Of a DNA stretch of 35,930 nt, positions 8,415 through 10,281 are shown one piece after another. Origin of the DNA: a virus. Its lineage: Duplodnaviria; Heunggongvirae; Uroviricota; Caudoviricetes. Location: the IMG/VR virus record IMGVR_UViG_2711768046_000005; one strand, 5' to 3'. The notes beneath the pieces are model-generated. The model had not been told where the DNA came from. It worked only from the letters and a program-made list of their open reading frames with translations, and made no database searches. Position 1 is the first letter of the stretch; every line of letters begins with the position of its first letter. The position numbers and the translations under genes are program-made.

Positions 8415-8439
8415 GTTATCAAATCTGACAGTCTGCTTT
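8415..8439. repeat. Left boundary repeat of cargo locus 1 (gttatcaa-atctgacagtc-tgcttt)
   Basis: Shares gttatcaa...gtctgcttt in direct orientation with 10223..10240. Its 11-mer atctgacagtc is present inverted at 10253..10263. Confidence 0.5.
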
Positions 8440-8751
8440 GAGTGAGAAGCAGACATTTACTTAACCGGATAGCAAGAGACTTCATACTACAGCTCATACA
8501 TCATGGTTGATCCCGGAGTTTTCAGCAATGGAAATTGCCCACATGATCGTACCGTAACCACATTAGAAGCAGGTTCACTTTGTGAATTTTGATTGTGTCA
8601 CCCTATCAGTTTTGAATTTTTATAAAAAATATTCGCAAATTTGTGAATTATGAGAGACATACGAGCATGGACAACCAATGTTACTTTCATACACAATGAA
8701 GCAACATGATAAAAATACACTGACTTTAGTAAGTAAATTTAGGAGATTGCG

Positions 8752-10086
8752 ATGTTTAGCTTAATCATGGCCGGAGAACCGGACGTTTTTGACCGCTGGC
8801 CGTGTATGGACCCTGAGCTTAAAGAAGGCAAGGAAAGCTTCTCGATGTCCCGCATGCTGGAAGGCACCCCAAGCAATATTTACAGAAAATTAACACCAAT
8901 AAGACCCGATACCTTAAGAGTACTCGCCAAGCTACCGGTGTTGTTCATGACCGAAATTTATACAAAAGATGATGAATATGATACAAACAAGTACATCAGG
9001 ATCAGGCTTGGGGAAATAAGAAATTTACGTAAAGATGGTGGCGATATTTTATTTTCTTTCAAGATTAATCATGATTTTGGAGAAATAACGAATCCCCAAA
9101 CGACATTATATAAAGAAACCCTAGGACTAGGATCTTTCGGGTTAAGTCGTACACATTGGGCAGTAAAAAATAAGGATTTGAATATTGTTCTGGAATTACT
9201 TGGTTTAAACAAAAAAAATAGCCATCTGAAAGGTACAATCAAATTAAAAAAACAAACATACCCAGTAGTCGAGAATATTATAGATTATCTTAATTTCATT
9301 AAGAAAAACTTTCGTGATGGTCTCATTACCTTCTATCGTGGACACTCTAAAAGCTCATATGAGCTTGTCCCCTCTCTTTACAGAAAAAATCAAAACGGGA
9401 CGTACAGGCATCTTGCTTCAGAATCTGATTTAGTACGTGAAATACTCAGCGCAAGACCAAATGAATTTAAGGAGGATAAATTTACGATTGATAAACTTGT
9501 CCGCATGCAGCATTATGGCTTGCCTACAAGACTCTTAGACATTACATCTAACCCACTGATAGCATTATATTTTGCTTGCTGTTCGAACCCCGATGAAAAC
9601 GGACAGGTGATTGCGTTTTCAACAAACAGAAAGAAAATTAAATATTTCGACTCAGACACAGTGAGCTGTATAGCAAACTTATCACTTTTATCTTACGAAG
9701 AGTTGGAAAAATTGTCTTCCATTGATGCCAGAAAAGGTAGTATGGAGTTACCTGAACTCACTGATAAACTTGCAGACCTTATACAGAATGAAAAATCATA
9801 TTTCAGAAACAGAATAATCCCTGATGACTTAAAGAAAGTTGTTTTCCTTAAGGCAAAAATAAATAATGAACGCATACAATCTCAGGCAGGAGCTTTTCTT
9901 CTGTTCGGACTTGATCCCATTTTACCGGAAACAGATGCTGAGTTTCCTCTTAACAGAGTGGAGATAGCGAACAAAAATAAAATTCTGGAAGAGCTGGCAC
10001 AGCTTAATATATCCGAAAGCACTGTATATCCCAGCATGGAGAAAACGGCAGCAGAAATTACAAAAAAGTTTTTATCGGTATCATAA
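8752..10086 (+). CDS. Cargo protein with C-terminal FRG-domain-like region; candidate single-gene anti-phage protein at the Z/fun position
   Basis: 444-aa ORF with AGGAG 6 nt upstream of the ATG. Strongly AT-rich relative to the flanking phage genes and on the opposite strand. Motifs FYRGHS (aa 194-199), QHYGLPTRLLDIT (aa 253-265) and QSQAGAFLLFG (aa 376-386) resemble the FRG domain signature as recalled. N-terminal 185 aa unassigned. Confidence 0.7.
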   Translation: MFSLIMAGEPDVFDRWPCMDPELKEGKESFSMSRMLEGTPSNIYRKLTPIRPDTLRVLAKLPVLFMTEIYTKDDEYDTNKYIRIRLGEIRNLRKDGGDILFSFKINHDFGEITNPQTTLYKETLGLGSFGLSRTHWAVKNKDLNIVLELLGLNKKNSHLKGTIKLKKQTYPVVENIIDYLNFIKKNFRDGLITFYRGHSKSSYELVPSLYRKNQNGTYRHLASESDLVREILSARPNEFKEDKFTIDKLVRMQHYGLPTRLLDITSNPLIALYFACCSNPDENGQVIAFSTNRKKIKYFDSDTVSCIANLSLLSYEELEKLSSIDARKGSMELPELTDKLADLIQNEKSYFRNRIIPDDLKKVVFLKAKINNERIQSQAGAFLLFGLDPILPETDAEFPLNRVEIANKNKILEELAQLNISESTVYPSMEKTAAEITKKFLSVS

Positions 10087-10222
10087 AGGGATAAACTAAA
10101 GGAAACGAAAACTAAGACTGCGCAGTCTTCAGGTGGAAGTACTCATCGGGAACGGTTTCAGGGGCAAAAACTGGAAGCTCCAATGGCCTTGAGCTGCTCC
10201 CTATAAATTAACATATCTCAAT

Positions 10223-10281
10223 GTTATCAATGTCTGCTTTTGGCACAGAGCGGACTGTCAGATTAGGCTTTACTCTGTGCC
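10223..10281. repeat. Right boundary repeat of cargo locus 1, with a 9-bp-stem hairpin (ggcacagag ... ctctgtgcc)
   Basis: gttatcaa-t-gtctgcttt direct match to the left boundary; gactgtcagat inverted match; local inverted repeat at 10242..10250 and 10273..10281. Confidence 0.5.

What the first reader, a model, noticed from the sequence alone, without database searches (positions are those of the whole stretch)
8415..10281. Cargo locus 1 is bracketed by near-identical short direct repeats with an embedded inverted 11-mer
Left boundary gttatcaa-ATCTGACAGTC-tgcttt (8415..8439) and right boundary gttatcaa-t-gtctgcttt ... GACTGTCAGAT (10223..10263) share about 18 bp in direct orientation. The 11-mer atctgacagtc is present once on each side in opposite orientation, and each side also has a local hairpin. 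This looks like a recombination scar or conserved cassette boundary that could mediate swapping of defence genes at this hotspot.
Basis: seen in the sequence. Interest (0 to 1): 0.4.

Follow-up and report, generated by a model that had tools for sequence, protein, structure and literature searches.

The report
Hairpin junctions bracketing prophage defence cassettes
The short repeats around this P2-like prophage's cargo gene are two inverted copies of a 24-base hairpin motif that marks the edges of swappable gene cassettes in P2-like and lambda-like prophages, and five different cassettes, this one included, have been exchanged between the two phage types with the breaks inside these hairpins.

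Summary
Each arm holds a hairpin with an 8-bp stem and 8-nt loop. The left (L) hairpin is GTCTGCTT-TGAGTGAG-AAGCAGAC. The right (R) hairpin is GTCTGCTT-TTGGCACA-GAGCGGAC.

In 42 cargo-bearing P2-like loci with at least 27 unrelated cargos, the R motif is present in all and the L motif in 41. Four cargo-free relatives lack the whole slot (8365-10316), so the motifs are not the G terminator or the FI promoter.

The same L/R pair flanks other cargos in Rac/Qin-type lambdoid prophages. It also occurs as an R-hairpin, 15-18 nt linker, L-hairpin junction between cassettes in arrays, including inside multi-gene P2 cargos.

Five distinct cassettes, including this FRG-domain gene, are 98.5-99.8% identical between P2 and non-P2 contexts. 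All ten breakpoints map to the hairpin loops.

Best reading: these are portable junction elements at which cassettes are exchanged. Whether short-homology recombination or an unidentified site-specific enzyme does the exchange is unresolved. No description of the motif was found in the searched literature, and a 2026 paper calls the mechanism of exchange between P2 hotspots and other mobile elements unknown.

The parts
7047..8237 (-). FI tail sheath gene, the left backbone flank of the cargo slot
   Evidence: Pfam Phage_sheath_1, Phage_sheath_1C and Gp18_domIII_N
8332..8362 (-). Intrinsic terminator (GGCGGGC-gaatt-GCCCGCC followed by TTTCTTT). It is the only element between the G stop and the FI promoter in cargo-free relatives
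   Evidence: Terminator scan; retained in empty sites L011, L025, L056 and L071
8365..10316 (.). The whole cargo slot: outer flanks, the two hairpins and the cargo. It is replaced by 2 nt in cargo-free P2-like phages
   Evidence: Empty sites read ..gcccgcctgt|at|ttattgcgg.. where the window reads ..gcccgcctgt(8364)|slot|ttattgcgg(10317..)
8365..8422 (.). Left outer flank of the slot. It is conserved in cargo-bearing P2-like phages whatever the cargo and is weakly inverted-repeated with the right outer flank
   Evidence: At least 0.9 column conservation over 27 cargo types; alignment A1
8422..8457 (.). Left arm of the 36-nt inverted repeat (AATCTGACA + L hairpin + ATT)
   Evidence: the repeat finder I1
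8431..8454 (.). L-type junction hairpin GTCTGCTT-TGAGTGAG-AAGCAGAC. It is chimeric: the 5' arm is the P2 type (T at position 4), while the loop and 3' arm are the donor cassette type
   Evidence: comparison with L325, L112 and Tritos
8430..10255 (+). The mobile FRG cassette as shared with non-P2 contexts (94-99.8% identity in 39 E. coli genomes and in phage Tritos)
8752..10086 (+). Cargo gene: a 444-aa FRG-domain protein that matches the PADLOC candidate defence family PDC-S15
   Evidence: Pfam PF08867, E=2.8e-22; PADLOC PDC-S15, E=6.7e-99
10189..10212 (+). Conserved non-coding motif (TTGAGCTGCTCCC..AAATTAAC) about 20 nt upstream of the R hairpin. It recurs upstream of R hairpins next to unrelated cassettes
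   Evidence: no consistent ORF
10229..10264 (.). Right arm of the 36-nt inverted repeat (AAT + R hairpin + TGTCAGATT)
   Evidence: the repeat finder I1
10232..10255 (.). R-type junction hairpin GTCTGCTT-TTGGCACA-GAGCGGAC. It is chimeric: the 5' arm and first loop base are the cassette type, while the first base of the 3' arm (G) is the P2 type
10242..10282 (.). Alternative, mutually exclusive hairpin GGCACAGAG-N23-CTCTGTGCC with the 11-mer in its loop. The stem is also kept in the lambdoid slot, with a different loop
10264..10316 (.). Right outer flank of the slot, conserved across cargos and ending at the G stop codon
10317..10844 (-). G tail-fibre assembly gene, the right backbone flank
   Evidence: Pfam Caudo_TAP

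Best explanation
The two motifs are the L and R members of a family of roughly 24-30-bp palindromic 'junction hairpins'. The stem is GTCYGCTY/RAGCRGAC. The L loop is TGAGCGA-N and the R loop is N-TGGCACA. They delimit accessory-gene cassettes in temperate phages of Enterobacterales. In P2-like phages one L and one R hairpin, in inverted orientation, frame the Z/fun cargo slot between G and FI. The outer half of each hairpin (5' arm and loop of L; loop and 3' arm of R) stays with the phage backbone. The inner half (3' arm of L, 5' arm of R, and the conserved ATT/AAT next to them) travels with the cassette. Cassettes are replaced by a double crossover, one within each hairpin. Donors carry the same hairpins: other P2-like phages, Rac/Qin-type lambdoid prophages, cassette arrays and plasmids. 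I infer that strand exchange uses the short shared sequence of the hairpins, through low-fidelity short-homology recombination such as phage single-strand annealing recombinases in co-resident lambdoid prophages. Having two different loops keeps L and R from recombining with each other. Shown by comparison: the motifs are conserved boundaries, are absent from empty sites, are shared across phage families, and are the points where homology between shared cassettes ends. Inferred: the enzymology, and any additional role of the hairpins in transcription or RNA stability.
For: 1) The inverted repeat and both hairpins are in the window. 2) Among 42 cargo-bearing P2-like loci with 27 unrelated cargo clusters, the R anchor is present in 42 and the L anchor in 41. 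Conservation is at least 0.9 up to ..TTTGAGCGA on the left and from TGGCACA.. on the right. About 12 nt of intermediate conservation follow on the cargo side (RRAGCGGACATT ... AAYGTCCGCTYY), and beyond that the sequence is random. 3) Four cargo-free loci lack the slot entirely. 4) The same L/R pair flanks different cargos in lambdoid prophages (Tritos, Evi). At least 44 IMG/VR loci with varied upstream sequence carry the lambdoid right flank. 5) R-hairpin, 15-18 nt, L-hairpin junctions separate cassettes in arrays and sit between genes inside multi-gene P2 cargos. 6) The FRG cassette lies in the P2 slot in only 2 of 41 E. coli genomes that carry it. In the other 39 the match ends at 8430-8439 and 10246-10255. 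The four examined examples of those lie in Rac/Qin-type prophages or in a chromosomal island. 7) Five distinct cassettes are 98.5-99.8% identical between P2 and non-P2 loci. In every pair the L 5'-arm position 4 (T or C) and the R 3'-arm position 1 (G or A) follow the context, and the rest of each hairpin follows the cassette. All 10 crossovers therefore fall in GCTTTGAGCGA (L) or TGGCACA (R). 8) No transposase or recombinase lies within the cassette. 9) The R hairpin is in 3,675 of 5,426 complete E. coli genomes at a median of one copy, as expected for a prophage- or plasmid-borne element.
Against: The uninterrupted identity between P2-type and lambdoid-type hairpins is only about 7-14 nt within a 24-30-nt patch. 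That is below the minimal efficient pairing segment quoted for RecA (31-34 bp) and at or below that for Red-beta (23-27 bp) (PMC3945230), so plain homologous recombination would be inefficient. The near-invariance of stem sequence and of two distinct loops across phage families, and the confinement of all mapped crossovers to the loops, would equally fit a site-specific enzyme. The same 22-nt motif is a high-copy intergenic repeat in Xanthobacteraceae genomes, which a phage-recombination role does not explain. No experiment shows that recombination is stimulated at these sites.
Confidence: 0.6

Rival explanations
1. The hairpins are core sites of an unidentified site-specific (tyrosine-recombinase-like) system. 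Each site has 11-bp inverted arms (AATGTCCGCTY / RAGCGGACATT) around a 7-8-bp overlap. The two overlaps differ (TGAGCGA at L, TGGCACA at R). L recombines only with L and R only with R, giving recombinase-mediated cassette exchange without excision. The enzyme is supplied in trans by the host or another element.
For: The 11-8-11 architecture fits. The arms are almost invariant in sequence, and the two loops are distinct and conserved in P2, lambdoid and array contexts. All 10 mapped crossovers lie in the loops, never in the equally long 3' arm of R. Shared identity is below the usual minimum for homologous recombination. The reverse complement of the R loop contains GTGCCAA, which is the 7-bp core of the sfx sites of the shufflon recombinase Rci (PMC4176322).
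Against: No recombinase gene is linked to the cassettes or slots. The cassette encodes only the FRG protein, and the one recombinase identified among the window ORFs scanned is the P2-type integrase. No single-hairpin 'empty' site was found in IMG/VR for the P2 slot or the lambdoid slot. The sfx arms do not match these arms (6 of 12 positions, by eye). Thousands of copies in alphaproteobacterial chromosomes would be dangerous as recombination sites.
Confidence: 0.22
2. The hairpins are primarily REP-like regulatory or RNA elements: transcript-end stabilisers, weak terminators or insulators between the phage operon and the cargo. They are conserved for that function, and recombination at them is an incidental by-product of sequence similarity.
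For: Both fold as stable hairpins (-14 to -24 kcal/mol, z about -2.4). The L hairpin is flagged as terminator-like. The R region can form two mutually exclusive hairpins, and the stem is kept in both P2 and lambdoid slots. In Xanthobacteraceae the same hairpins sit in clusters of 2-3 between ordinary chromosomal genes, like REP/BIME elements. R-to-L polarity relative to the backbone operon is the same in the P2, Rac-type and array contexts.
Against: There is no U-tract after either hairpin in the outward direction. Cargo genes lie in either orientation relative to L and R, 17 minus and 10 plus. G·U versus A·C mismatches show no clear strand asymmetry: 26 versus 30 in R, and 49 versus 21 in L, the latter driven by one backbone position. 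Stem sequence is conserved far beyond what pairing requires. Nothing matches in Rfam.
Confidence: 0.12
3. The cassette is a non-autonomous transposable element (MITE-, PATE- or REPIN-like). Its terminal inverted repeats or subterminal hairpins are recognised by a transposase supplied in trans, for example an HUH/Y1 enzyme of the IS200/IS605 or RAYT type.
For: The cassette has 36-nt terminal inverted repeats with subterminal hairpins. Cassettes occur in several unrelated genomic contexts. REP-like proliferation of the same hairpin is seen in other bacteria.
Against: No target-site duplication is present: the flanks read GTTATCAA / TAGGCTTT. The hairpins are chimeric, with the outer half belonging to the site and the inner half to the cassette, which is not expected if whole ends transpose. 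Cassettes are found only at pre-existing hairpin-bounded slots. No transposase lies in the cassettes examined in detail, except an unrelated IS in one array.
Confidence: 0.05
4. The repeats are chance similarity, or are simply the conserved G terminator and FI promoter of P2.
For: One component, the GTTATCAA 8-mer shared in direct orientation, is indeed coincidental.
Against: Zero matches are expected in shuffles. The motifs are conserved across 27 cargos. They are absent from cargo-free phages that keep the terminator and promoter.
Confidence: 0.01

Closest known systems
PeSL (promoter-early stem-loop) cassettes of T4-type phages (Arbiol et al. 2010, PMC2839356)
   Same: Both are short conserved intergenic elements containing a stem-loop. 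Both are repeated between non-essential genes in hyperplastic regions, flank insertions and replacements, and are proposed to drive modular shuffling by recombination between copies.
   Different: PeSLs include a strong sigma-70 promoter and act as terminators, whereas no promoter-like site or U-tract accompanies these hairpins. PeSLs are specific to one phage lineage, whereas this motif is shared by P2-like and lambdoid prophages, plasmids and even alphaproteobacterial chromosomes. Here there are two distinct hairpin types, L and R, with fixed polarity.
REP/BIME elements of bacterial chromosomes (and REPIN/RAYT systems)
   Same: Both are imperfect palindromes of 20-40 nt, often in clusters with short spacers, located after genes. 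REPs are known, from my own recollection of the literature, as hot spots for illegitimate and short-homology recombination. In Xanthobacteraceae genomes this very hairpin behaves like a REP.
   Different: In E. coli the motif is low-copy (median 1 per genome). In every context examined it sat in prophage, plasmid or genomic-island DNA, bounding accessory cassettes. Its sequence is unrelated to the E. coli REP consensus. No GTAG head and no linked RAYT gene were seen.
Integron gene cassettes and attC sites
   Same: Both involve promoter-less or self-contained cassettes in arrays separated by imperfect palindromic sites. Part of each site travels with the cassette and part stays behind. Cargo is diverse and enriched in defence genes.
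   Different: There is no IntI integrase and no attI site. The GTTRRRY/RYYYAAC core sites are absent. Each cassette has two different hairpins rather than one attC. No single-site empty form was found, which suggests replacement rather than insertion and excision.
pdif modules of Acinetobacter plasmids (XerC/D site-flanked cassettes)
   Same: Both are discrete accessory-gene modules bounded by inverted pairs of roughly 28-bp palindromic sites. Both are found in many replicon backgrounds without their own mobility genes.
   Different: The sequence is unrelated to the XerC/XerD binding consensus (judged from memory of that consensus). The spacer is 8 nt rather than 6. Involvement of Xer was not tested.
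Phage 'morons' and the P2 Z/fun hotspot (Rousset et al. 2022, PMC9122126; NAR 2026, PMC13586616)
   Same: The position is the same, between tail genes G and FI, with AT-rich defence cargo that is rapidly swapped between otherwise similar phages.
   Different: Neither paper contains the words hairpin, palindrome, inverted repeat or terminator, and so neither describes a boundary motif. The 2026 paper states that the mechanism of exchange with other mobile elements is unknown. This finding supplies a candidate physical junction.

Membership tests
P2 Z/fun defence hotspot | Variable AT-rich cargo between the tail-fibre assembly gene G and the tail sheath gene FI of a P2-like phage | tested here: met
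   FI at 7047-8237 and G at 10317-10844. GC is 0.35-0.40 across 8401-10200, against about 0.55 in the FI-side flank and 0.43-0.47 over G/H. P2 itself carries a different cargo at the same place.
Integron cassette / attC | attC site with inverse core RYYYAAC and core GTTRRRY at the cassette boundary | tested here: not met
   The boundaries read ..ATCTGACAGTCTGCTT.. and ..GAGCGGACTGTCAGATTAGG.., and no GTTRRRY core lies at the junctions.
Integron cassette / attC | Adjacent IntI-type integrase and attI site | tested here: not met
   The ORFs flanking the slot are tail genes. The one recombinase identified among the window ORFs scanned is the P2-type phage integrase at 34323-35336.
REP/BIME | High-copy (hundreds per genome) intergenic palindromes in the host chromosome | tested here: not met
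   In E. coli the median is 1 and the maximum 7 copies per genome. The feature is met in Xanthobacteraceae and Pseudolabrys MAGs, with up to 18 hairpins per 8 kb between ordinary chromosomal genes.
REP/BIME | Association with a RAYT (Y1 HUH) transposase flanked by the repeats | not tested
   No RAYT search was done. The 25 most frequent Pfam families shown for ORFs next to alphaproteobacterial copies did not include Y1_Tnp, but that list is truncated.
PeSL-type regulatory cassette | Strong sigma-70 promoter joined to a stem-loop that terminates transcription | tested here: not met
   No promoter-like site lies at either hairpin. Only the L hairpin is weakly terminator-like, and there is no U-tract in the outward direction.
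PeSL-type regulatory cassette | Copies flank insertions or replacements that distinguish related phages | tested here: met
   27 cargo types lie between the same two motifs, and internal junctions lie between genes of multi-gene cargos.
PeSL-type regulatory cassette | Formation of cassette mini-circles by recombination between copies | not testable with these tools
   This needs PCR or sequencing of induced lysates.
Transposon / MITE | Terminal inverted repeats | tested here: met
   36 nt, 83% complementary.
Transposon / MITE | Target-site duplication, and whole ends moving together | tested here: not met
   The flanks are not duplicated. The hairpins are chimeric between site and cassette in 5 of 5 shared cassettes.
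Intrinsic terminator | GC-rich stem followed by a U-tract | tested here: inconclusive
   The L hairpin is listed with the tail ATTTACTTAA on the + strand and the R hairpin is not listed. The canonical terminator of the region is the separate hairpin at 8332-8362.
Tyrosine-recombinase core site (lox/FRT/dif/sfx type) | Two inverted 9-13-bp arms around a 6-8-bp overlap in which crossover occurs | tested here: met
   The architecture is 11-8-11, and all 10 mapped crossovers lie in the loop. The architecture alone is not diagnostic.
Tyrosine-recombinase core site (lox/FRT/dif/sfx type) | A cognate recombinase that binds and cleaves the site | not testable with these tools
   No candidate gene is linked. 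The Rci sfx core GTGCCAA matches the reverse complement of the R loop, but the arms differ.

The most novel reading that the evidence does not exclude
These hairpins are the recombination sites of an unrecognised, integrase-less cassette system. Defence and other accessory genes travel as L-hairpin, cargo, R-hairpin units among P2-like phages, lambdoid prophages, plasmids and genomic islands of Enterobacterales. A trans-acting enzyme that is still unidentified would recognise the 11-8-11 palindromes and use the two heterospecific loop sequences for cassette exchange. The same enzyme-site pair would underlie the REP-like proliferation of the motif in Alphaproteobacteria.
Probability: 0.2. Interest if true: 0.9.

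Novelty: new variant of a known kind. Interest (0 to 1): 0.7.

Why it matters
How defence systems move between phage hotspots without carrying mobility genes is an open question. The 2026 survey of thousands of P2 and P4 elements lists transposons, homologous recombination and illegitimate recombination as possibilities. It notes that none fits exchange with unrelated mobile elements (PMC13586616).

A conserved, sequence-defined junction shared by P2-like and lambdoid hotspots, with five documented cross-family transfers breaking inside it, turns that question into a testable one. The hairpins can be mutated, the recombination genes varied, and cassette transfer measured.

The motif also gives a practical handle. 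Scanning for L/R hairpin pairs should delimit cassettes, and hence candidate defence genes, in prophages and plasmids. The pair could also serve as landing pads for engineering P2-like or lambdoid phages.

Tried and rejected
1. Direct-repeat or target-site-duplication reading. Rejected: the GTTATCAA pair is coincidental and the real relation is inverted.

2. Motifs as the G terminator or FI promoter. Rejected by the empty sites.

3. A single-hairpin 'empty' site. Patterns for the P2 slot and the lambdoid slot found nothing in IMG/VR. This argues weakly against an insertion and excision cycle.

4. Known RNA family. Rfam at a permissive E-value found nothing at the hairpins.

5. A small conserved ORF ending about 20 nt upstream of the R hairpin ([DE]xLPx[DN]*). 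Rejected: there is no start codon and no consistent ORF length. It is a conserved DNA motif of unknown role.

6. Strand asymmetry of G·U versus A·C mismatches, used to tell RNA or single-stranded DNA function from duplex function. Inconclusive.

7. Flank-identity decay around the slot, used to locate P2-to-P2 crossovers. Uninformative, because G and H are themselves mosaic.

8. Alphaproteobacterial copies as cassette arrays. Rejected: the neighbouring genes are ordinary chromosomal genes, such as ABC substrate-binding proteins, so the motif is REP-like there.

9. Other cargo loci of this window (15530-16273 and 25800-29400). They have no such hairpins.

10. Phage lambda itself, region 38000-45000 (cro through Q). 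It lacks the motif.

11. Literature search by sequence strings and by topic. No description was found.

12. Rci/sfx similarity. Only the 7-bp core matches, so I kept it as a lead only.
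Full report
**Context**

The window is a P2-like prophage. On the minus strand lie the tape-measure gene (3592-6039), FII (6516-7034), the FI sheath gene (7047-8237), the G tail-fibre assembly gene (10317-10844) and the H tail fibre gene (10846-13020). Between FI and G, the classical Z/fun hotspot, sits a low-GC segment (0.35-0.40). It holds one plus-strand gene at 8752-10086. The gene encodes a 444-aa FRG-domain protein (PF08867) that matches the PADLOC candidate defence family PDC-S15 (E=6.7e-99).

**Observation**

The repeat finder gives a better description. 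The top inverted repeat in the region is 36 nt at 83% complementarity:

- 8422-8457: AATCTGACAGTCTGCTTTGAGTGAGAAGCAGACATT
- 10229-10264: AATGTCTGCTTTTGGCACAGAGCGGACTGTCAGATT

Each arm contains a hairpin with an 8-bp stem and 8-nt loop:

- L hairpin, 8431-8454: GTCTGCTT-TGAGTGAG-AAGCAGAC
- R hairpin, 10232-10255: GTCTGCTT-TTGGCACA-GAGCGGAC

Because the stems are palindromic, the 5' arms also match in direct orientation. The GTTATCAA 8-mer shared in direct orientation is coincidental. The left copy is backbone, and most relatives have GCTATCAA there. The right copy belongs to the cassette. The hairpins fold with z-scores near -2.4. The right side can alternatively form GGCACAGAG-N23-CTCTGTGCC.

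**Comparison within P2-like phages**

I fetched 80 IMG/VR loci through the FI protein and extracted the FI-to-G intergenic region for 46 of them.

Four loci are empty. Between the G stop and the FI promoter they have only the 23-28-nt intrinsic terminator. At nucleotide level they read ..gcccgcctgt|at|ttattgcgg.., where the window has 8365-10316. The motifs are therefore not the G terminator or the FI promoter.

The other 42 loci carry cargos of 1.0-4.3 kb. The 41 loci with both anchors fall into 27 unrelated clusters; L063 lacks the L anchor and was left out of the clustering. The R anchor is present in 42 and the L anchor in 41.

Taking one representative per cargo cluster gives this conservation profile:

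- Left: at least 0.9 up to ...ATCTGACAGTCTGCTTTGAGCGA, then 12 nt of intermediate conservation (RRAGCGGACATT), then random sequence.
- Right: random sequence, then AAYGTCCGCTYY at 0.4-0.9, then at least 0.9 from TGGCACAGAGCGGACTGTCAGATTAGG... onward.

So the outer half of each hairpin is backbone-linked. The inner half is cargo-linked but still conserved. Every cassette carries a terminal inverted repeat of about 12 bp.

The main cargo ORF lies on either strand, 17 minus and 10 plus, so the hairpins are not oriented with the cargo gene. Multi-gene cargos contain internal R-hairpin, 18 nt, L-hairpin junctions between genes.

The two other low-GC cargo loci of this window (15530-16273 and about 25800-29400) have no such hairpins.

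**Beyond P2**

The segment 8430-10255 is 98.4% identical to part of the lambdoid phage Tritos. There it sits between hokD and a DUF977/Ren-like gene downstream of the replication genes, flanked by the same L and R hairpins.

Of 41 complete E. coli genomes that carry the cassette, only two have it in the P2 slot. In the other 39 the match ends at 8430-8439 and 10246-10255. The four of those I examined fall into two contexts:

- Rac/Qin-type prophages, with the order ydaT, DUF977, FRG, hokD, rem, ydfU.
- A chromosomal island where FRG is followed by an R-17 nt-L junction and an AAA-ATPase/HNH pair.

Phage Evi has a different cargo, an acetyltransferase plus a regulator, between the same L/R pair at the same lambdoid position.

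A scan of IMG/VR for the R loop and 3' arm gave these contexts:

- At least 44 loci with the lambdoid right flank (AACCACGC...) and varied sequence on the cargo side.
- At least 25 loci with the P2 flank.
- Further contexts in which an R hairpin is followed after 15-18 nt by an L hairpin. These junctions recur every 1-2.5 kb in arrays, for example L093 and L181, between replication gene P and ydfU.

The R hairpin occurs in 3,675 of 5,426 complete E. coli genomes. The median is one copy and the maximum seven, and 200 places are on plasmids. The region of phage lambda examined, cro through Q, lacks it.

**Direct evidence for exchange at the hairpins**

Five distinct cassettes are shared at 98.5-99.8% identity: L013-type, L021-type, FRG, L032-type and L049-type. 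The boundary alignments show the same pattern in every pair:

- In the L hairpin, position 4 of the 5' arm follows the context (T in P2, C in lambdoid). The last loop base and the 3' arm, including cassette-specific variants, follow the cassette.
- In the R hairpin, the 5' arm and first loop base follow the cassette. The first base of the 3' arm follows the context (G in P2, A in lambdoid).

All ten crossovers therefore lie in the 11-nt GCTTTGAGCGA (L) or the 7-nt TGGCACA (R).

The window's own hairpins are such chimeras. A 99.8%-identical copy of the cassette in a lambdoid (Rac/Qin-type) prophage (L325) has GTCCGCTT-TGAGTGAG-AAGCAGAC and ...TTGGCACA-AAGCGGAC-aacc.

**Mechanism**

The comparative facts show that these are junction elements at which cassettes are swapped. 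The enzymology is inferred.

I favour short-homology recombination, plausibly by single-strand-annealing recombinases of co-resident lambdoid prophages. The reasons are that no recombinase is linked to the cassettes, no single-site empty forms exist, and whole arrays can move together.

The main weakness is that uninterrupted identity is only 7-14 nt. That is below the reported minimal pairing segments of 31-34 bp for RecA and 23-27 bp for Red-beta (PMC3945230).

The chief rival is an unidentified site-specific recombinase. These features fit it:

- the 11-8-11 architecture;
- the invariant arms;
- the two conserved heterospecific loops;
- the confinement of crossovers to the loops.

The reverse complement of the R loop also contains GTGCCAA, the core of the Rci sfx sites, but the arms differ.

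A purely regulatory, REP-like role is a further rival. The evidence on it is mixed:

- No U-tract follows either hairpin and nothing matches in Rfam.
- G·U versus A·C mismatches show no clear strand asymmetry.
- The alternative R-side hairpin is kept in both P2 and lambdoid slots.

**An unexplained wider distribution**

One scan of the GTDB representative genomes with a 20-specified-base pattern found the motif in many Enterobacterales. It also found many copies in Xanthobacteraceae, Pseudolabrys and other Hyphomicrobiales MAGs. There ATGTCCGCT-loop-AGCGGACAT hairpins, with loops GGCACA, GGGGGTA or GACCCA, sit in clusters of two or three spaced 21 nt apart. They lie between ordinary chromosomal genes, as REP/BIME elements do. 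I cannot explain why the same 22 nt serve as a REP-like repeat there and as a cassette junction in enterobacterial phages.

**Comparison with the literature**

Text searches of the two main papers on P2 hotspots found none of the words hairpin, palindrome, inverted repeat or terminator. [quoted passage not shown] Searches by sequence string and by topic found nothing. The library does not cover most subscription journals, so an older description cannot be excluded.

The closest analogue is the PeSL cassette of T4-type phages (PMC2839356). REP/BIME elements, integron attC arrays and pdif modules share individual features but fail the membership tests listed.

**Verdict**

The feature is a new variant of the 'conserved linker or junction element' idea. 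It offers a concrete, testable handle on how defence cassettes move among temperate phages.

Noticed in passing
window 8752-10086: The cargo is a 444-aa FRG-domain protein that matches the PADLOC candidate defence family PDC-S15 (E=6.7e-99). Of the 41 E. coli genomes carrying it, 39 hold it outside the P2 slot; the four of those examined were Rac/Qin-type prophages and a chromosomal island.
   Followed up: partly
window 10189-10212: A conserved motif, TTGAnCnGCTCCC-N4-5-(A/T)RATTAAC, lies about 20 nt upstream of the R hairpin. It recurs next to R hairpins of unrelated cassettes in Pantoea, Erwinia, Mixta, Rahnella and P2-like loci. It is not a consistent ORF, and its function is unknown.
   Followed up: partly
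window 25970-29257 (minus strand): The second (cos/old-tin side) hotspot carries two Ser/Thr protein kinases (PD-T4-6/mad6-like) and a PP2C-like phosphatase. GC there is 0.35-0.42. No junction hairpins flank this locus.
   Followed up: partly
window 15530-16273: A third low-GC (0.32) gene encodes a 247-aa protein on the opposite strand to the neighbouring tail/baseplate-region genes, at about the position I recall for P2 orf30. It has no Pfam or PADLOC match and no junction hairpins.
   Followed up: partly
window 8365-8422 and 10264-10316: The outer flanks of the slot are themselves a degenerate inverted repeat of about 90 nt, for example GAGTGAGTTCAA (reverse complement of 8372-8383) against GAGCTCATGCAA (10303-10314). 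The right outer flank is homologous to the right flank of the lambdoid slot (..CTGTGCCAyArAwATGT). The whole slot may have been acquired as one module.
   Followed up: partly
L205-L324 (GTDB genomes), e.g. L277, L230, L295: The same hairpin (ATGTCCGCT-loop-AGCGGACAT, with three loop types) is a high-copy REP/BIME-like intergenic repeat in Xanthobacteraceae, Pseudolabrys and other Hyphomicrobiales MAGs. Up to 18 copies occur per 8 kb, often after ABC substrate-binding protein genes.
   Followed up: partly
L181 4054-4279 and 2462-3949: A group II intron (Rfam RF02005, E=4.5e-54) with its reverse transcriptase lies about 220 nt from an R-L junction in a lambdoid cassette array. An IS (DDE transposase) sits inside a neighbouring cassette.
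   Followed up: no
L329 (E. coli K-12 Qin prophage) 5982-6005 and 6973-6996: Degenerate reverse-orientation copies of the R and L hairpins bracket flxA in Qin of K-12. The R-like copy lies inside the annotated ydfV ORF.
   Followed up: no
window 10233-10248, R hairpin loop: The reverse complement of the R loop in lambdoid copies (TGTGCCAA) contains GTGCCAA, the 7-bp core of the sfx sites of the shufflon recombinase Rci. The arms do not match.
   Followed up: partly
L322 601-724: One enterobacterial locus with three R hairpins also carries the repBA regulatory pseudoknot (RF01089). These cassette junctions therefore also occur on IncF-like plasmids, consistent with the 200 plasmid places in E. 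coli.
   Followed up: no
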